32,000 bases of DNA from Candidatus Hermodarchaeota archaeon (GTDB taxonomy: Archaea > Asgardarchaeota > Heimdallarchaeia > Hodarchaeales > Hodarchaeaceae). The stretch lies in NCBI GenBank assembly GCA_048886185.1, contig JBHLKY010000005.1, positions 1-32,000 of the forward strand. Direction: 5' to 3'. The position numbers and the translations under genes were made by a program. A model generated the notes under the pieces. That model was not told the origin of the DNA, did no database searches, and saw nothing but the letters and a program-made list of their open reading frames with translations. This document shows positions 17,781-24,131 of the stretch, one piece after another (the stretch's first letter is position 1; every line of letters begins with the position of its first letter).

Positions 17781-18362
17781 ATGAGATGTCATATACACTG
17801 TTTAAAAAGAGGATTAAATCAGTTTGAAGATAATACTGCTTTTAAATCTCAGTTAAAGTCAAAAATCTCATTCCAAAATAAACAAAATATTCTATCTGAA
17901 ATAGAAGATCATTTAAGAGAATTTCGAATGAACCTAACACATCTAAAAGATAAACCAGTTAGTTATATAATGGGAAATCTATCCCACATTTTGGGGTACG
18001 GTTTAGGAAGTACGCCTCAATCTGATGATATTTTTTTGGGAATTTTGGCTGCAATTTATTGTTTAAATAATCATGTACAATCAGAATTCGAATTTCTATC
18101 CAAATTACCTTTTGAAAGATTTACGACGTCTGAATCAGCACAATTATGTCGTAACTTCTTACACCAGAATTTTCCTTCTGAAATTATTCCCTTTCTTGAG
18201 CTATTAAAGGATCCACTGAACGATAATTATGCAAAATTTCGTTTTGAAGAAGAGATTCACAAAATAAATTCAATTGGAACTTCAAGTGGATATTATTTCT
18301 TACTAGGAGTGTTATGGGAATTAGAATATGATTTTAATTGCTACAGTAAGCAACAAGAGTAG
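17781..18362 (+). CDS. DUF2877 (YlbE/AllH-like) family protein, probably 5'-truncated or decaying
   Basis: GYGLGSTPQSDDIFLG resembles the DUF2877 G.G.GLTPSGDD..G motif; FTTSES and IGTSSG...LLG resemble downstream motifs. The frame continues upstream through a TAA at 17739-17741 to an ATG at 17709. Confidence 0.55.
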   Translation: MRCHIHCLKRGLNQFEDNTAFKSQLKSKISFQNKQNILSEIEDHLREFRMNLTHLKDKPVSYIMGNLSHILGYGLGSTPQSDDIFLGILAAIYCLNNHVQSEFEFLSKLPFERFTTSESAQLCRNFLHQNFPSEIIPFLELLKDPLNDNYAKFRFEEEIHKINSIGTSSGYYFLLGVLWELEYDFNCYSKQQE

Positions 18363-18386: not shown

Positions 18387-19151
18387 TTATAGGATGGAAT
18401 CAAAATATTGCATTAATGAATCGAGAAGATTCTCAAGAGTCCCTATGTGATCAGCTGCTAAATTCATATTTTCAAAAACAGGATCAGTTTGAATTATTTC
18501 AGTAAAAGCTCGGCCATCTGATTTAATTAAAAAAGTCTTCATTCCAAGCTTCCCAGCTATCATATCATTAATGGGATCATCACCAATCATCATACATTCA
18601 GAAGGTTTTTTATTGATTCTATCTAATAATTCTTCATAAAATTCTAGATGAGGCTTAGCAAAATGATAATCATCTGCTGAAGTAATTTCAAGCCATGGAA
18701 ATGCACTTAGACCAGCCATTCTGAACCTCTTCTCATTCGCTATAGCTGGAAAAAGTGGATTTGTCGCTGCAACTAAAGAAAAGTGTTCTGCTGCAAGTGT
18801 TAGTAGATCTTTTGCAGTTTTTGGTAGAATCATTATTTGACACACCTGTTTCCAATCTGTTTCATAAAATTGTTTGAATCGCTCTATAATCTCTGTTATA
18901 GAGATTTTTGTTCTTGAATTGAAATCAATAGCAAATTTTGTCAAATTGTCATAGTTGGAATTTTCTATCTTCGTCATTTCGTTTGTAGACGCCAAAAAAA
19001 ACTCCAAGAACTTCTCAAACTCAGGAACTTCTTTTTTAAAAAAGTTATGGATTAAATTCGCATAGATGTGAAAAAATTCTCGATCATCAAATATCAGGAG
19101 AGTGTGATCAATATCAAATAACAGAGTGGTAATCTGTGAGAAATCTATCAA
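18387..19151 (-). CDS. HAD-family hydrolase
   Basis: LLFDIDHTL, ATNPLFP, AKPHLEFY, MIGDDPINDMIAG. TTG start at 19151 with GAGG RBS preferred over the ORF-track start at 19247. Confidence 0.9.
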   Translation of the reverse strand: MIDFSQITTLLFDIDHTLLIFDDREFFHIYANLIHNFFKKEVPEFEKFLEFFLASTNEMTKIENSNYDNLTKFAIDFNSRTKISITEIIERFKQFYETDWKQVCQIMILPKTAKDLLTLAAEHFSLVAATNPLFPAIANEKRFRMAGLSAFPWLEITSADDYHFAKPHLEFYEELLDRINKKPSECMMIGDDPINDMIAGKLGMKTFLIKSDGRAFTEIIQTDPVFENMNLAADHIGTLENLLDSLMQYFDSIL

Positions 19152-19286
19152 GTTTCCTCGCCAAGAAATTTTATGAGAAAGGGATTTAAAGGTATAAGAC
19201 CTCACATTGCAAATAATTTTTATTCCCTTTGTAAACTGGCAGCTCATGTTTGAGAAAAAGACACATCAATCAAAGGAGTGATAATT

Positions 19287-20843
19287 ATGTCACAACCCCT
19301 TCCAATTAAGAAACCTTCGGATATAAGAGAGTTTGTTGTAGAACAAGCTGAAATTTTTCCAAAACAGACTGTCATTTTGTCTCCAGACTCGGATTTATTC
19401 AGGGGATCCTTTAGAAATCCTCAACTACAATTAATGAGTGATAAACGAACTATATTCACAGAACATATTGTACTTTCGGATCATGTTCCTGTTGGAGAGA
19501 TTTGGGCTTCAGCAGATTTGATGGCTGAACTTGAAATTGAAGAAGGCACAAAGATTCAAGTTTTACCACTTAGTAGAACTCCTCCAGATAGTTATTGGTT
19601 GATTAGACAACGTATGATACAAAAACGCCCTTTTAAACAGAATGAAATCACAATGATAGTTAATGATATAGCTCACCATCGTCTTAGTCAATTAGAAAAA
19701 ACAGCATTCGTTCTTTCCCAAGTTTTTGATCCTTATAGCATGGATGAGATTGAGGAATTATCAAGAGCAATGGCCCAAACTGGGGAAATAATTGATTTTG
19801 GTCAAGAGACTACTTTTGGAAAACACAGTACAGGAGGAGTACCAGGAAACAAGGTGTCTCTTTTAATCGTCCCCATCATTGCCTCCGCGGGATTACTTAT
19901 ACCTAAGACAAGTAGTCGCGCAATAACGAGCCCATCGGGGACTGCTGATACAATGGAGGCATTTGGATGTGATGTGGTATTTTCTGCTGAGGAATTGGTT
20001 GAAATTTCTCAAAAAACTCGTGGAATGATAGTTTGGGGAGGAGGATTTAATTTAGCTCCCGCTGATGATATCCTCATCAGGGACGTTGAGTTTCCTTTGG
20101 GAGTTAATCCTACTTCAATGATGCTTGCTTCTATTATGTCAAAGAAGTTAGCAACTGGTATTCATTTCCTAGTGATGGATTTGCCGACAGGACACGGTAC
20201 AAAGATCGCAGATATAGGTACGGCACAAGCACTTGGACGTGATTTTGCTGAACTCGGTCGTAGATTAGGGATTCGTGTTGAAAGCGGAATCACATTTGGA
20301 GCACACCCCGTGGGACATTCTGTTGGATCTGCACTTGAAGCAAGAGAAGCATTACTTACATTGATGAATCCTAAAGAAGGACCGTCCTCTCTTGTCGAAA
20401 AATCTTGTGAGTTATCTGGAATTCTACTTGAAATGGCAGGTAAAGCTCTACGAGGTCAGGGAAGAGAGTTAGCTAAGCAAATACTTTACAAAGGACAAGC
20501 TTTAGAAAAATTCCGTGAAATCCTTGAAGCTCAAGGTGGTAATAGGGCGATAAAACCTGAAGATATTCCTGTTGGGGAACATTACTGTGAAATTTTATCA
20601 CCATCAAGTGGTTGGATTGTCCAAATAGATAATGTGAAAATAGCAGAGATTGCAAGAACAGCTGGATGTCCAAAAGATAAAGGTGCTGGAATATTCTTTC
20701 TTAAAAAGAAAGATGCTGTTCAACGTGGAGAATCTCTCATTCGTATTCATTCTTCATCGGAATCCCGTTTATCAGCAGCAGAAGGAAAATTTGCTAAATT
20801 AAATCCAATCACAATTGAGGGGATGCTTATTGGACGGGTTTAA
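19287..20843 (+). CDS. AMP phosphorylase / thymidine phosphorylase family protein, copy 1 (full length with N-terminal domain; Asn at the proton-donor position)
   Basis: KHSTGGVPGNK, PKTSSRAITSPSGTAD, LASIMSKK, DLPTGHGTK, C-terminal ITIEGMLIGRV. ATG 19287 with GGAGTG RBS; the ORF track starts at GTG 19278. Confidence 0.92.
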   Translation: MSQPLPIKKPSDIREFVVEQAEIFPKQTVILSPDSDLFRGSFRNPQLQLMSDKRTIFTEHIVLSDHVPVGEIWASADLMAELEIEEGTKIQVLPLSRTPPDSYWLIRQRMIQKRPFKQNEITMIVNDIAHHRLSQLEKTAFVLSQVFDPYSMDEIEELSRAMAQTGEIIDFGQETTFGKHSTGGVPGNKVSLLIVPIIASAGLLIPKTSSRAITSPSGTADTMEAFGCDVVFSAEELVEISQKTRGMIVWGGGFNLAPADDILIRDVEFPLGVNPTSMMLASIMSKKLATGIHFLVMDLPTGHGTKIADIGTAQALGRDFAELGRRLGIRVESGITFGAHPVGHSVGSALEAREALLTLMNPKEGPSSLVEKSCELSGILLEMAGKALRGQGRELAKQILYKGQALEKFREILEAQGGNRAIKPEDIPVGEHYCEILSPSSGWIVQIDNVKIAEIARTAGCPKDKGAGIFFLKKKDAVQRGESLIRIHSSSESRLSAAEGKFAKLNPITIEGMLIGRV

Positions 20844-21168
20844 TATAGAAAAGTACTAAGGTTTATTCTAGCCCAGATTCAAAGCTATCTTAATTCATGG
20901 GATTTTCAATCAAAGAATTACTTCTTACACATCTAAGGAATTTTTATGCTTTTTACTTAGCTGTACATGTTACATGATTTTTTTCTTTGTATATAAAAAT
21001 ATAAATAGATGTAGAGATGGTTTAATAATAAACCTTCAGTATGGAAATCTTCATTTATAGGCTGTTTAATCTCTAAGTGGATATTATTCAGAATCTATAT
21101 TAAAATTATTACTAAAGGAGCAGATATTATCACCAAACATAACCTTAAGAATTTTAAGAAGTGATGTA

Positions 21169-22467
21169 ATGAAATCAAAGACTCTGGAACTAAAACCATC
21201 TTATAATACTAGTACTCATCGGCTTATAATAGAGAAAGTTAAAGATAAAACGAAAATTTTCAATAAAGAAGATATCGATCAAATAACACAGGGTTTTATG
21301 GATTCAAATATTTCCAGTCATCACGGTACCGCTTTTGTGTTATCTCAACATTTTACCCAATATACATTAGATGAAATTGAAGCGATGGCACGATCATTTG
21401 CTGAATCAGGACGAATTTTTGATTTTACTGGGCCTACGTTCGCAAAACACTCTTTAGGGGGCGTTCCAGGTAACAAGATCACTCTACTAATCGTTCCAAT
21501 TTTAGCAGCTGCAGGTCTTTTAATACCTAAGACATCCACACATGCAATCACTTCCGCAAGTGGTACAGCTGATAGTATGGGTGTTCTTGCTCCTGTTGAT
21601 ATAAAAGCTGATGAGGTGATCGAAATTGTTAATAAAACAAAGGCATGTATTGTAACAGGTCGAGAGATGGGGATAGCACCAGTTGTCGATAAGATCATTC
21701 AAAATGCGGCTTTCCCGTTAGGAATAGATCCTGTAAGTCTTATGTTTGCAGGGATTTTAGCAAAAAAACTTGCTATGGGTGTTGATTTTTTAGTCTTGGA
21801 TGTACCAATTGGAACAGAAAAAGTTTCTACAGAAGAAGAGGGGCGTTTACTAGCTAGACAGTTCGTTGATCTAGCACATCGATTAGGGATCAAAGCAGAG
21901 GCAGCATTGACATATGCAGCTGTTCCTGTGGGCCACACAATCGGTCCATTACTAGAAGCAAGAGAAGCTCTAGAGGCACTAGAAGGAAAAGGACCCACTT
22001 CATTAGTGGAGAAAAGTTGTGAGTTATCAGGGATTGTTTTTGAATTGGCTGGAATGACTCCTAGAGGATTTGGAAAACAATATGCATCTGAGTTGTTGAG
22101 AAGTGGTAAAGCCCTGCAAAAAATGCGAGAAATAATCGGAGCTCAAGGTGGAGATTCGACGGTTACTCCTGCAGACCTATCCCAGAAACTCAAGGATCGT
22201 CCAGTTTTGGAATATAAAGCTCCTTCAGATGGATGGCCTCATACTTGGTCAACATATGCTTTGAAAGAAATAGCTAGAACTGCTGGGGCTCCACGAGATC
22301 CTTGCGCAGGAATTGAAATATTAGCTAAGAAAGAATCTGTCCGAAAAGGGGACATTGTTTTTAGGGTTTATGGTTCATCAGAATCTGCGCTCGATGAAGT
22401 CCGAGGATTGATTGCAAAATTACGACCAGTAATAATTGAGTCAGTGCTTTTGGAACGAATTGCTTGA
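21169..22467 (+). CDS. AMP phosphorylase / thymidine phosphorylase family protein, copy 2 (lacks the N-terminal domain; altered substrate-binding motifs)
   Basis: KHSLGGVPGNK, PKTSTHAITSASGTAD, LGIDP, AGILAKK, C-terminal VIIESVLLERIA. 432 aa, collinear with copy 1 from about residue 95 onward. Confidence 0.9.
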   Translation: MKSKTLELKPSYNTSTHRLIIEKVKDKTKIFNKEDIDQITQGFMDSNISSHHGTAFVLSQHFTQYTLDEIEAMARSFAESGRIFDFTGPTFAKHSLGGVPGNKITLLIVPILAAAGLLIPKTSTHAITSASGTADSMGVLAPVDIKADEVIEIVNKTKACIVTGREMGIAPVVDKIIQNAAFPLGIDPVSLMFAGILAKKLAMGVDFLVLDVPIGTEKVSTEEEGRLLARQFVDLAHRLGIKAEAALTYAAVPVGHTIGPLLEAREALEALEGKGPTSLVEKSCELSGIVFELAGMTPRGFGKQYASELLRSGKALQKMREIIGAQGGDSTVTPADLSQKLKDRPVLEYKAPSDGWPHTWSTYALKEIARTAGAPRDPCAGIEILAKKESVRKGDIVFRVYGSSESALDEVRGLIAKLRPVIIESVLLERIA

Positions 22468-22539: not shown

Positions 22540-23670
22540 ATGAAGAATAATTCTGGATCAGAAATATCTGCATTTAAATCCGCATATCACCTTTTAATTC
22601 GAACAGCTAAACGTTCTGTCAATACAATCAATCAGGAACCTCATAATCTTGCACTTTTTTGTAGAACACTTTCAAATGCACTTGAAGATGAAGATAAAGT
22701 AATTCATGTTGCAGGAGTAGGGCTATCTAAGCAAATAGGTATGATACTTGGTGAAAGCTTAAAGAATATCGGTTTTTCAAATCGTGTTTCATACCTAGGT
22801 GATGTTCTCGCGTTACCTATTAAAAAGGATGATGTAATGATTGCAATAACTGGTTCTGGATGGACCACACCCACTACAACTGTTCTTGAGGAAGCTGTTT
22901 GGAAGAAAGCTAAGGTTTTGACCTTTACTGGATTTTCTGACTCCAAAGCTGCAAAATTATCTGAAGCAACAATTCAAAGCCCATTAGGATTTAAACTAGA
23001 AGATCAGCTCTCCCCATATACTAGTAAACCTGCCCCCCTTTCACCTCTAGGAACAATTTTCGAGCTAACTACATTTATTATTGGACTTGGGATTATAAAT
23101 GGTGTCTACAAAGGCTCCTGCACTAAAGGATTTAATGAAGGAACTAATAATATCTTAAAAGCAGCAGAACAGTCATTTGAAAATTTAACGAAAGAAGTTA
23201 AGTTATTTGACTGCATTAAGGTATTAAGTGATTATTATAGAAAAAGTAAATCTAAAATCTTCTTCTATGGCAATGGATTAGAAGAAGTTATCGTCTCAAT
23301 GTGTTCGAGTCGATTTCAATCGTTGGGAATGAATATCCATTCAATGGCAGATTGGCGTTTTCGTAGAGAGAAGGATTTACTAATAGTGTTTTCTGGTAGT
23401 GGAGACTCACCGATTACATCAGTTATCATCGAAAGCGCCAAAACCAGTGGGATGTTTGTGTTTGGTATTACTTCATTTCCTCAATCTCGATTAGCATTAA
23501 AATCAGACAATTTTTTGATCATACAAGGTAGAAAGGAAAGAATAGATAACGAAAAGCTTCAATTAATCCATTCAAGGATGTATCTACCAATATTTGAATA
23601 TATCATTACTGTTACACTTGAAGCTATTATAGCTCAACTTGTTGTTAATCTAGGTATACCAGAAACTTAG
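22540..23670 (+). CDS. Tandem SIS-domain protein (HxlB / 6-phospho-3-hexuloisomerase-like, degenerate)
   Basis: Two repeats of the HxlB pattern: HVAGVGLS...DDVMIAITGSGWT...LTFTGFSDSKAAKLS...PLGTIFE and FFYGNGLE...DLLIVFSGSGDS...FGITSFPQSRLALKSD...PIFE. Confidence 0.8.
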   Translation: MKNNSGSEISAFKSAYHLLIRTAKRSVNTINQEPHNLALFCRTLSNALEDEDKVIHVAGVGLSKQIGMILGESLKNIGFSNRVSYLGDVLALPIKKDDVMIAITGSGWTTPTTTVLEEAVWKKAKVLTFTGFSDSKAAKLSEATIQSPLGFKLEDQLSPYTSKPAPLSPLGTIFELTTFIIGLGIINGVYKGSCTKGFNEGTNNILKAAEQSFENLTKEVKLFDCIKVLSDYYRKSKSKIFFYGNGLEEVIVSMCSSRFQSLGMNIHSMADWRFRREKDLLIVFSGSGDSPITSVIIESAKTSGMFVFGITSFPQSRLALKSDNFLIIQGRKERIDNEKLQLIHSRMYLPIFEYIITVTLEAIIAQLVVNLGIPET

Positions 23671-23741: not shown

Positions 23742-24131
23742 TCATATCATGCCAGAGAGCTTCTTTGCGGCTCTTTTCATATCAAGTAAAACTAATCCAA
23801 GTTTTGCATCTACTCTTGCAATCCCCACTAGAACTGCATGTTCTCCAGCATCACGAATTATTACTAATCCATTTGATCCAGTAATAATTAATTGTTCCAT
23901 TATTCCCCTCTCCAATTCTTGGACGACACGTTCTGAAAGGGATAGACTTGCTGCTGTCATCGCAGATATTCGATCTTCATCCGTATTTGTATATAGGGCA
24001 CTAGCAATTGGGAGTCCATCTCTAGTTACTACTGCTAATCCTTCAAGATCAGGTATCCGGCCTTGAACTTCGCGAAGAATTCGTTCTATTTGTTGTAACC
24101 GATCCATGATCTCAGCGTCATCATTTAGCAT
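23742..24131 (-). CDS. Roadblock/LC7 (MglB/LAMTOR-like) domain protein
   Basis: LEGLAVVTRDGLPIAS...DEDRISAMTAASLSLSERVVQELERG.MEQLIITGSNG...DAGEHAVL...AKLGLVLLDMKRAAKKL is a typical roadblock pattern. Confidence 0.95.
   Translation of the reverse strand: MLNDDAEIMDRLQQIERILREVQGRIPDLEGLAVVTRDGLPIASALYTNTDEDRISAMTAASLSLSERVVQELERGIMEQLIITGSNGLVIIRDAGEHAVLVGIARVDAKLGLVLLDMKRAAKKLSGMI

What the first reader, a model, noticed from the sequence alone, without database searches (positions are those of the whole stretch)
19287..22467. Tandem AMP-phosphorylase paralogs with complementary defects: candidate heteromeric or pseudoenzyme system
Reference (Thermococcus kodakarensis AMP phosphorylase annotation as I recall it; verify): SRAITS and GTAD bind substrate, the Asp of 'IDP' is the proton donor, the Ser of 'LAS' and Lys of 'PTGxGxK' bind AMP, and C-terminal residues mediate higher-order multimerisation. 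Seen in copy 1: N-terminal domain, SRAITS, LAS and PTGHGTK all intact, but Asn replaces the catalytic Asp (GVNP, AAT at 20106-20108). Seen in copy 2: the Asp is kept (GIDP, GAT at 21727-21729), but the N-terminal domain is missing, SRAITS becomes THAITS (21538-21543), LAS becomes FAG (21751-21753) and the Lys loop is one residue shorter (PIGTEK). Both lack the Asp normally preceding the xHS motif (FGKHS, FAKHS), suggesting a lineage-specific duplication, and both keep the C-terminal strand. Both are intact ORFs and well diverged, which argues for selection rather than decay. Inference: a hetero-oligomer or filament with a nucleotide-sensing subunit and a catalytic subunit, or two enzymes with new specificities.
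Basis: partly seen in the sequence, partly recalled or inferred. Interest (0 to 1): 0.78.

Follow-up and report, generated by a model that had tools for sequence, protein, structure and literature searches.

The report
Diverged AMP phosphorylase paralog pair
Two neighbouring genes of an Asgard (Hodarchaeales-type) archaeon encode old, separately conserved relatives of the nucleotide-splitting enzyme AMP phosphorylase. Each has its own change in the substrate pocket, so they are most likely two working enzymes for different nucleotides rather than two half-broken subunits.

Summary

The "complementary defects" reading is weak:
- The Asn of copy 1 sits at a labile site: D/E/N in the family, at least 25 changes on the tree. 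Four of five solved bacterial pyrimidine-nucleoside phosphorylases whose alignments were read carry Asn there.
- The duplication is ancient. Clade A (Asn type) and clade B (Thr194/Gly264 type) are sister Asgard clades.
- In every B locus checked where a second copy lay nearby, that copy was an Asn-type A.
- Both genes are under strong purifying selection (dN/dS about 0.04-0.06).
- Two congeneric genomes keep the Asn-type gene with no clade B gene found, so A does not need B.

Features special to this lineage:
- copy 2 has lost its N-terminal domain;
- both copies have lost Asp162;
- the third, canonical paralogue found in most congeners was not found here.

A true form III RuBisCO is present, so these two genes are the only candidates found for feeding it.

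Clade B genes are repeatedly linked to a double-SIS gene and a Roadblock/LC7 gene.

Best reading: two isozymes with different nucleotide range. A hetero-oligomer is not excluded. This scan reached the same conclusion on the same pair in other genomes.

The parts
19287..20843 (+). Copy 1, clade A ('Asn type') AMP/NMP phosphorylase homologue, 518 aa from the ATG (521 from the in-frame GTG at 19278). It has an N-terminal domain of about 100 aa.
   Evidence: TIGR03327 AMP_phos 541.5 bits (cut-off 535). 4GA5 E 7e-122. Orthologues 87-95% identical in L004-L008. dN/dS about 0.055.
20106..20108 (+). AAT = Asn277 of P0001, at the site of Tk Asp256.
   Evidence: Asn in all 22 members of clade A proper and in 35 of the 47 A/C-clade sequences; parsimony puts Asn at the root of that clade.
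19821..19823 (+). GGA = Gly181 of P0001, where the family has the Asp of the D-x-H-S motif (Tk Asp162).
   Evidence: Gly only in this gene, L004, L005, L007, L008 and L122. Asp in L121 and in the rest of clade A.
20844..21168 (.). AT-rich spacer (26% GC) with T-runs after copy 1 and TATA-like hexamers before copy 2. Probably a terminator plus copy 2's own promoter (inferred).
   Evidence: No N-domain remnant found by tblastn. The spacer is only about 31 bp in L008.
21169..22467 (+). Copy 2, clade B ('Thr194/Gly264 type') AMP phosphorylase homologue, 432 aa, N-terminal domain deleted.
   Evidence: TIGR03327 432.5 bits, below cut-off. 4GA4 E 4e-96. Orthologues 85-92% identical. dN/dS 0.033-0.048.
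21538..21543 (+). ACA CAT = Thr124-His125 of copy 2 (Tk Ser194-Arg195).
   Evidence: Thr in 100% of 60 clade B sequences; the next residue is H, K or R across the clade, with Tyr in two further B-type loci, L038 and L039.
21751..21753 (+). GGG = Gly195 of copy 2 (Tk Ser264, the base-contacting Ser of the S-I-x-x-K-K motif).
   Evidence: Gly in 98% of clade B. Ser in 117 of 117 family representatives from the copy 1 search.
22540..23670 (+). Double-SIS (two PHI/HxlB-like domains) protein, 72 bp behind copy 2.
   Evidence: PF01380 and PF13580. TIGR03127 102.7 bits, below cut-off 160. Next to clade B also in L117 and L120 and in all close relatives.
23742..24131 (-). Roadblock/LC7 protein, 129 aa, very conserved.
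   Evidence: PF03259 62 bits. 93-97% identical in congeners. 52-73% identical homologues lie next to clade B in L117, L118 and L119. dN/dS 0.014-0.03.
18387..19247 (-). HAD-family hydrolase, with weak similarity to pyrimidine 5'-nucleotidases, divergent from copy 1.
   Evidence: PF00702/PF13419. NCBIfam hits all below cut-off. AllH-HAD-A is kept in G063, where the B-SIS-Roadblock genes are not at this locus.
17781..18362 (+). AllH-like (PF11392) protein, syntenic with HAD and copy 1.

Best explanation
These are two anciently duplicated, independently conserved isozymes of the archaeal nucleotide (AMP/NMP) phosphorylase. Each cleaves a nucleoside 5'-monophosphate with phosphate to give base plus ribose 1,5-bisphosphate, and their nucleotide ranges differ.

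Copy 1 (clade A) is a complete enzyme. Its only notable pocket change is Asp to Asn at a naturally labile site, and it can function on its own. Copy 2 (clade B) has a remodelled pocket: Ser194 to Thr, Arg195 to His/Lys/Arg, and the otherwise invariant base-contacting Ser264 to Gly. It therefore probably takes a different base or a related 5-phosphoribosyl compound.

In this lineage the third, canonical paralogue was not found, so these two genes are the only candidates found for supplying ribose 1,5-bisphosphate to the e2b2-type isomerase candidate and the form III RuBisCO of this genome.

Shown: homology, conservation of the signatures, linkage, purifying selection, and occurrence of A without B. 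Inferred: activity of each protein, the difference in specificity, and the link to RuBisCO.
For: 1. Both proteins align end to end with Tk-AMPpase. They keep His164, Ser165, Gly168, Thr203, Lys268 and Lys288, which are near-invariant in 236 family members.
2. dN/dS is about 0.055 for copy 1 and 0.033-0.048 for copy 2, against 0.14-0.21 for the SIS gene next door. No gene-conversion tracts link the two copies.
3. Asn at the Tk-256 site occurs in 1BRW, 3H5Q, 5OLN and 5EP8 PyNPs. It occurs in 12 of 117 50%-identity cluster representatives, with Glu in 16 more. The site needs at least 25 changes on the tree, and the Asp-bearing third copies are nested in an Asn-rooted clade.
4. Clade-specific invariant changes of B fall on the motifs recalled as substrate-binding in the Tk enzyme (S194T 100%, S264G 98%) or in the segment just before residue 256. 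They do not fall in the C-terminal tail.
5. G063 (94% complete) and G056 (one 3.2-Mb contig) have the Asn-type A plus a canonical copy, and no clade B gene was found in them.
6. G000 (96% complete) and the closed relative G058 have only A and B. G000 has a form III RuBisCO over cut-off (542.5 against 497) and an e2b2 protein whose best model is R15P isomerase.
7. Tk-AMPpase accepts all NMPs and dNMPs (PMC8376864, citing Aono 2012), so splitting the substrate range after duplication is a small step.
8. Other archaea also carry pairs that include an Asn-type copy: an Asp/Asn tandem in a Methanospirillum MAG (L091), and an Asn-type plus a Thr194-type copy about 13 kb apart in a Korarchaeota MAG (L084/L126).
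Against: - No member of clade A or clade B has been assayed, and no structure with ligand exists for either.
- In AMP phosphorylase itself, Asp256 is annotated as proton donor (UniProt/HAMAP, recalled from memory; I could not read Nishitani 2013). Tolerance of Asn is shown here only for pyrimidine-nucleoside phosphorylases.
- The N-terminal domain was reported as needed for activity of the Tk enzyme (recalled from the abstract of Nishitani 2013, not verified). Copy 2 lacks it.
- Wherever a second AMPpase gene lay near a clade B gene, it was an Asn-type A. This would also fit a heteromer.
- The e2b2 candidate is below the equivalog cut-off (209.5 against 314).
Confidence: 0.55

Rival explanations
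1. Hetero-oligomer. A and B co-assemble through the two dimer interfaces that let Tk-AMPpase form very large multimers. One subunit type is catalytically dominant and the other is regulatory. In this lineage, A might supply the N-terminal domain that B has lost.
For: - Wherever a second AMPpase gene lay near a clade B gene, it was an Asn-type A. This holds for eight contig-length matches in the homologue table and for three loci read on DNA.
- Both proteins keep the C-terminal tail. That tail, together with the N-terminal 84 residues, mediates multimerisation in Tk (PMC8376864).
- In the window's sub-lineage B lost its N-domain and both genes lost Asp162. A lost the Asp only in lineages where B had already lost it.
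Against: - A occurs with no B found in G063 and G056.
- B is not next to any A in the Thor locus L117 or in G397.
- The clade-specific changes lie on pocket motifs, not in the C-terminal tail.
- N-domain-less family members occur in several other lineages: 9 of the 117 representatives show fewer than 20 N-terminal residues, though some may be fragments.
- No A-B fusion protein exists among 269 relatives. The roughly 1000-aa hits have one AMPpase body split by a roughly 500-aa insert.
- Loss of Asp162 is not simultaneous in the two genes (L121).
Confidence: 0.2
2. Clade B is not a bulk catabolic enzyme. It is the nucleotide-binding or nucleotide-processing part of a B + double-SIS + Roadblock/LC7 module, acting as a sensor or a specialised pathway. 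The tandem with A in this genus is then a juxtaposition of two modules: AllH-HAD-A and B-SIS-Roadblock.
For: - B is adjacent to a Roadblock homologue in L117 (Thor), L118 and L119, and to a double-SIS gene in L117 and L120. It is adjacent to both in every close relative, with gene order and strand rearranged between lineages.
- In G063 AllH-HAD-A is kept and B-SIS-Roadblock is not at that locus. G056 and G063 also show only more distant SIS (43-44%) and Roadblock (75-79%) paralogues.
- B carries the only change in the family at the otherwise invariant Ser264.
Against: - B keeps the phosphate- and ribose-side motifs, Asp256 and Lys288, and evolves like an enzyme.
- L120 has no Roadblock gene, L118 and L119 have no SIS gene called, and G397 has neither.
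- The genome has 11 Roadblock paralogues, and a 76-79% identical second paralogue exists in congeners, so orthology of the distant neighbours is not settled.
- Loss of three adjacent genes can be a single deletion.
Confidence: 0.13
3. Redundant isozymes with the same substrates. They would differ only in regulation, expression or stability, and the pocket differences would be neutral.
For: The Tk enzyme is already broad in specificity (PMC8376864). The D/N site is labile. The 325-bp spacer suggests separate promoters.
Against: S194T and S264G have been fixed in clade B for a very long time (100% and 98% of 60 sequences), at sites that are otherwise strongly conserved (S194) or invariant (S264) in the family. 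Asn is fixed in all 22 members of clade A proper. Both patterns point to selection on the pocket.
Confidence: 0.1

Closest known systems
AMP (NMP) phosphorylase of Thermococcus kodakarensis (TK0353/DeoA; PDB 4GA4, 4GA5, 4GA6; NCBIfam TIGR03327)
   Same: Both copies share the same fold and domain order (helical bundle, alpha/beta domain, PYNP_C-like C-terminal domain with tail). The HS-GG, AITS-GTAD, S/G-I-x-x-K-K and Lys288 motifs are kept. Copy 1 also has the archaeal N-terminal domain and passes the equivalog cut-off. The genome holds a form III RuBisCO, the pathway partner.
   Different: Copy 1 has Asp256 to Asn, Asp162 to Gly and a longer N-terminal domain. Copy 2 has no N-terminal domain, S194T, R195H, S264G, Asp162 to Ala and a Lys loop one residue shorter, and it scores below the equivalog cut-off. 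Neither clade has been assayed.
Bacterial pyrimidine-nucleoside phosphorylases (Geobacillus stearothermophilus PyNP 1BRW; also 3H5Q, 5OLN, 5EP8)
   Same: Same NP-II family. They carry Asn at the position aligned without gaps to Asn277 of copy 1, eight residues before the base-contacting Ser.
   Different: They act on nucleosides, not nucleotides. They have no N-terminal domain, a different phosphate loop (SGRGLGHTGGT) and an Arg168 that the AMPpases lack at that position.
Other archaeal AMPpase paralogue pairs: the Methanospirillum MAG tandem (L091) and the Korarchaeota MAG pair (L084/L126)
   Same: Each is a pair of AMPpase paralogues of which one carries Asn at the Tk-256 site. The Methanospirillum genes are adjacent; the Korarchaeota genes lie about 13 kb apart. 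The Korarchaeota partner also has Thr at Tk-194.
   Different: They have independent origins. Both members pass the AMP_phos cut-off, Ser264 is kept, and no link to SIS or Roadblock genes was examined.
Asp/Asn base-specificity switch of NP-I purine nucleoside phosphorylases (E. coli PNP Asp204 against human PNP Asn243; from my own knowledge, not checked here)
   Same: A single Asp/Asn difference next to the leaving base that decides between 6-amino and 6-oxo purines. It offers a chemical rationale for a D/N split between paralogues.
   Different: Unrelated fold. This is an analogy only.

Membership tests
AMP phosphorylase, NCBIfam TIGR03327 (equivalog) | Whole-protein HMM score at or above the curated cut-off (535 bits) | tested here: inconclusive
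   Copy 1 scores 541.5 bits, just over the cut-off. Copy 2 scores 432.5 bits, below it.
AMP phosphorylase (Tk-type) | Archaeal N-terminal domain of about 84 residues preceding the NP-II body | tested here: inconclusive
   Present in copy 1 (about 100 aa; aligned from Tk residue 34). Absent from copy 2, with no remnant in the spacer. Most other clade B members have it.
AMP phosphorylase (Tk-type) | Tk substrate-site residues G168, S194-S199, T203, D256, S264, K288 (roles recalled from the UniProt/HAMAP annotation) | tested here: not met
   Copy 1 has all of them except D256 (Asn). Copy 2 has S194T, R195H and S264G and keeps the rest.
AMP phosphorylase (Tk-type) | C-terminal tail used for multimerisation | tested here: met
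   Both proteins align to the Tk sequence through the ...IEG-x-x-L-x-R-I end. The role of the tail is taken from PMC8376864.
AMP phosphorylase (function) | Phosphorolysis of AMP/CMP/UMP to base plus ribose 1,5-bisphosphate | not testable with these tools
   Needs an enzyme assay.
Archaeal AMP / pentose-bisphosphate pathway | R15P isomerase (e2b2) and form III RuBisCO present in the same genome | tested here: inconclusive
   RuBisCO III scores 542.5 bits, over the cut-off of 497.45. The e2b2 protein L016 has R15P isomerase as its best model but scores 209.5 against a cut-off of 314.1. L017 is MtnA.
Nucleoside phosphorylase family II (thymidine/pyrimidine-nucleoside phosphorylase fold) | Glycos_transf_3 alpha/beta domain with helical-bundle and PYNP_C domains | tested here: met
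   PF00591 is over cut-off in both copies (56.6 and 39.4 bits). PF07831 is over cut-off in copy 1. PF02885 is just under cut-off in both. Both give full-length alignments to PyNP and TP structures.

The most novel reading that the evidence does not exclude
Clade B, with its uniquely altered base pocket, works together with the conserved double-SIS protein and the Roadblock/LC7 protein as an Asgard-specific nucleotide or sugar-phosphate sensing or processing module. It would be a catabolic enzyme recruited to a Roadblock-type (GTPase-regulator) signalling platform. In this lineage it may additionally co-assemble with the Asn-type paralogue, which would provide the N-terminal domain that B has lost.
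Probability: 0.08. Interest if true: 0.85.

Novelty: new variant of a known kind. Interest (0 to 1): 0.42.

Why it matters
AMP phosphorylase is the entry step of the archaeal nucleotide-to-RuBisCO (pentose-bisphosphate) route. Genome-based metabolic reconstructions of Asgard archaea usually count it as one function.

This analysis shows that Hodarchaeales-type and other Asgard genomes carry at least three long-separated subfamilies:
- a canonical Asp type;
- an Asn type;
- a Thr194/Gly264 type, which is the only group in the family to replace the base-contacting Ser.

Knowing what each one cleaves would refine how these close relatives of eukaryotes recycle nucleotides. It would also give enzymologists natural specificity variants of a biotechnologically used nucleotide phosphorylase.

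The recurrent link of the Gly264 type to a Roadblock/LC7 gene is a cheap lead to test for Asgard signalling biology.

Tried and rejected
- Complex prediction of copy 2 with the Roadblock protein (alignments A1 and A2): no verdict, score 0.00 against a mark of 0.32. This is not evidence either way. I ran no further search on A+B. Paralogues of a homodimeric family would be expected to pass by likeness to 4GA4-6, and the tool cannot compare hetero- with homo-dimers.
- RNA evidence: no RNA holder listed. Only sediment and estuary DNA runs hold the stretch, so no reads were laid.
- Rosetta-stone fusion. The 925-1017-aa relatives looked like A-B fusions ('2 stretches'), but each is one AMPpase split by a roughly 500-aa insert, probably an intein. 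The roughly 680-aa relatives carry an extra N-terminal region.
- A decayed N-domain in the spacer before copy 2: none found by tblastn with seven N-domains. The distance to copy 1 shows a deletion rather than in-place decay.
- Gene conversion between the copies: none. The best nucleotide match is 70-73% over 101 nt or less.
- Strict co-evolution of the Asp162 loss in both copies: rejected by L121, where A has Asp and B has Ala.
- The related-loci search with the clade B alignment returned mostly generic archaeal AMPpases, because the pattern it chose was family-wide. It was useful only for names and for the Methanospirillum and Korarchaeota pairs.
- The structure paper (Nishitani 2013) and Aono 2012 are not held. 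The roles of D256 and of the N-domain therefore rest on my memory and on PMC8376864.
- My dN/dS figures for the HAD gene are unreliable (mis-paired codons on the minus strand) and are not used. dS is saturated (above 1) for all genes, so all ratios are approximate.
- The weak TIGR03327 hit on contig C15 is a CDC48-N-like domain fused to a VWA-like protein, not a third AMPpase.
Full report
**1. What is there**

The window comes from a 4.84-Mb, 96%-complete genome. Its close relatives are labelled Hodarchaeota, Heimdallarchaeota or Promethearchaeota MAGs.

Two co-oriented ORFs lie at 19287-20843 and 21169-22467. Both are homologues of archaeal AMP phosphorylase and are 46% identical to each other.
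- Copy 1 scores 541.5 bits on NCBIfam TIGR03327 (cut-off 535).
- Copy 2 scores 432.5 bits.
- The best solved relative of both is the T. kodakarensis enzyme (4GA4/4GA5; E 7e-122 and 4e-96).

I read all the codons, and every motif and coordinate in the finding is right.
- Copy 1 has Asn (AAT, 20106-20108) at D256.
- Copy 2 has Thr-His for S194-R195, Gly (21751-21753) for S264, a Lys loop one residue shorter, and no N-terminal domain.
- Both have lost the Asp of the D-x-H-S motif (Gly in copy 1, Ala in copy 2).
- Both keep the C-terminal tail.

**2. The duplication is ancient and the signatures define clades**

A search with copy 2 returned 120 relatives, almost all Asgard. Aligned, they fall into two signature groups.

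I built a FastTree (LG+gamma) tree of 265 sequences. It combined these relatives, 117 representatives from the 1.8-billion-protein library, paralogues taken from related genomes and a bacterial PyNP outgroup.
- Clade B (60 sequences, support 1.00) is sister to an A/C clade (47 sequences, support 0.96). The joint node has support 0.98.
- Deeper nodes are poorly supported.
- Clade B is T194 (100%), D256 (100%) and G264 (98%), with H, K or R at position 195.
- All 22 members of clade A proper have Asn at 256.

The idea that the patterns are conserved is right.

**3. Is Asn a defect?**

The site is labile.
- Among 117 representatives it is D83/E16/N12. By contrast H164, G168, S264 and K288 are invariant or nearly so.
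- Fitch parsimony needs at least 25 changes at this column. It puts Asn at the root of the A/C clade, so the Asp-bearing third copies look like reversions.
- In gap-free alignments anchored on S-I-M-S-K-K, four solved bacterial pyrimidine-nucleoside phosphorylases (1BRW, 3H5Q, 5OLN, 5EP8) have Asn at this position. 7M7K and human TP have Asp.

It does not prove that Asn works with AMP. The 'proton donor' label for D256 is recalled from the UniProt/HAMAP annotation, and I could not read the structure paper.

**4. Selection**

Against five orthologous loci, dN/dS is about 0.055 for copy 1 and 0.033-0.048 for copy 2. The SIS gene gives 0.14-0.21 and the Roadblock gene 0.014-0.03. dS is saturated, so these are rough figures.

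Neither gene is decaying, and there is no gene conversion between them.

**5. Linkage**

The order AllH, HAD(-), A, B, double-SIS, Roadblock(-) is kept in seven related genomes and three metagenomic contigs.

Outside the genus, clade B genes have these neighbours:
- L118: a convergent Asn-type A and an upstream Roadblock gene.
- L119: an upstream Roadblock gene, with an Asn-type A 3 kb away.
- L120: a double-SIS gene and a convergent Asn-type A.
- L117 (Thor-labelled): a Roadblock gene and a SIS gene, with the A gene inferred to lie elsewhere on the same contig (from matching contig lengths).

Eight further B/A pairs share a contig length, and in each the partner is an Asn type.

**6. A does not need B**

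Most of the 21 species of the genus carry three paralogues: the tandem A+B plus a canonical Asp-type copy elsewhere.

G063 (94% complete) and G056 (one 3.2-Mb contig) have the Asn-type A and the canonical copy, and no clade B gene was found in them.
- At the G063 locus AllH-HAD-A is intact, and unrelated genes follow it.
- In G056 the A gene likewise has no B next to it.
- Both genomes show only more distant SIS (43-44%) and Roadblock (75-79%) paralogues.

In this genus the tandem therefore looks like two juxtaposed units, AllH-HAD-A and B-SIS-Roadblock. An obligate A-B heteromer is unlikely from A's side.

In a sample of 400 Asgard species genomes, clade B (E <= 1e-118) was found in 15 genomes of this genus, counting the window's own, and in one other genome. 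The cut-off may miss the most distant members.

**7. What is special to this lineage**

- Most clade B proteins are about 502 aa with the N-domain. Only the closest relatives (>= 83% identity), plus one other small group, are truncated.
- L010, L121 and L122 still have the N-domain. No remnant is left in the window's spacer, and the A-to-B distance shows a deletion.
- Asp162 was lost first in B. It is Gly or Ala in L121 and L122, which still have the N-domain. It was lost later in A: Gly in L122 and in the window's group, but still Asp in L121.
- The window's genome and the closed relative G058 showed no canonical third copy.
- The genome has a true form III RuBisCO, an MtnA, and an e2b2 protein that best matches R15P isomerase but falls below cut-off.

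If the nucleotide-to-RuBisCO route runs here, A and/or B must feed it. This argues that at least one of them, and probably both, is an active phosphorylase.

**8. Mechanism**

Tk-AMPpase accepts all NMPs and dNMPs. It forms multimers of more than 40 subunits through its C-terminal ten residues and its N-terminal 84 residues (PMC8376864).

The clade-specific fixed changes of B fall on the S194 and S264 motifs and on the segment just before residue 256. They do not fall in the C-terminal tail. That fits a change of substrate more than a change of partner. The D/N difference next to the leaving base recalls the Asp/Asn specificity switch of NP-I purine nucleoside phosphorylases (my own knowledge; analogy only).

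Other archaea also carry pairs that include an Asn-type copy. A Methanospirillum MAG has an Asp/Asn tandem. A Korarchaeota MAG has an Asn-type and a Thr194-type copy about 13 kb apart. Repeated evolution of such pairs fits subfunctionalisation of a broad-range ancestor.

My weights are:
- two isozymes with different nucleotide range: 0.55;
- facultative or obligate hetero-oligomer: 0.20;
- B as part of a SIS/Roadblock module with a sensing or special role: 0.13;
- redundant isozymes: 0.10.

**9. Comparison and novelty**

Both proteins belong to the NP-II fold family. Copy 1 passes the AMP_phos equivalog threshold. Copy 2 fails that threshold, the N-domain criterion and the residue criterion. 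It should be called an AMP-phosphorylase-like protein of an uncharacterised subfamily.

I found no paper describing these subfamilies.

The scan itself has met the same pair on other Hodarchaeales genomes, and the follow-ups reached the same main conclusion. My analysis is independent and agrees with them.
- the recent N-domain deletion;
- the staggered Asp162 losses;
- no third paralogue found in this genome;
- genomes with A and no B found;
- the PyNP Asn precedents;
- the recurrent B-SIS-Roadblock neighbourhood.

Verdict: a real, conserved, uncharacterised variation on a known enzyme. It is moderately interesting and is not a new kind of system on present evidence.

Noticed in passing
window 23742-24131 (-); L117 2122-2505; L118 3302-3694; L119 3247-3639: A very conserved Roadblock/LC7 protein (93-97% identical within the genus; 52-73% identical homologues elsewhere) lies next to clade B AMPpase genes in several Asgard lineages, with changing order and strand. 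The genome has 11 Roadblock paralogues, so orthology of the distant neighbours is not settled.
   Followed up: partly
window 22540-23670 (+); L117 2546-3778; L120 2574-3785: A double-SIS (two PHI/HxlB-like domains) protein follows clade B in this genus. It is also adjacent to clade B in a Thor-labelled and an Odin-labelled contig. It scores below the PHI cut-off (102.7 against 160). It evolves much faster than its neighbours (about 60% identity within the genus).
   Followed up: partly
proteins P0129, P0144, P0147, P0162, P0165, P0200, P0203 (925-1017 aa): These are AMP phosphorylase homologues interrupted by a roughly 500-aa insert, placed either after the HS-GG motif or after the GTAD motif. 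The inserts are probably inteins at active-site motifs.
   Followed up: partly
proteins P0210, P0225, P0236, P0241, P0254, P0260, P0265 (about 680-690 aa): These are AMP phosphorylase homologues with an extra N-terminal region of about 230 aa of unknown nature.
   Followed up: no
L091 1662-3200 and 3216-4766 (uncultured Methanospirillum sp. MAG): An independent tandem pair of AMP phosphorylases. Both pass the equivalog cut-off (668 and 709 bits). One has Asp and one Asn at the Tk-256 site.
   Followed up: partly
L084 3123-4736 and L126 (Korarchaeota-type MAG 'Kor1', same contig, about 13 kb apart): Two AMP phosphorylases. One has Asn at the Tk-256 site and Ser at 162. The other has Thr at 194 and Asp at 256. 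No H-S-x-G-G motif was found in the second by my pattern.
   Followed up: partly
L003 523-1812 (-) = G000 contig C15: A 429-aa protein whose N-terminus weakly matches the N-terminal domain of the AMP phosphorylase model (E 5e-6). Its remainder looks VWA-like by eye. This suggests the AMPpase N-domain is related to a CDC48-N-type barrel.
   Followed up: no
G000 contigs C21 and C4 (L013, L014, L015): One true form III RuBisCO (542.5 bits). Two RuBisCO-like proteins best match DK-MTP-1-P enolase models but fall below their cut-offs.
   Followed up: partly
window 19247-19287: Only about 40 bp separate the divergent HAD hydrolase gene and copy 1. This leaves very little room for two archaeal promoters.
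   Followed up: no
L120 1-703: A large (1369-aa) protein with a Cas12f/TnpB-like domain lies about 3 kb upstream of the clade B gene (the PAS response regulator and the double-SIS gene lie between) on the Odin-labelled contig.
   Followed up: no
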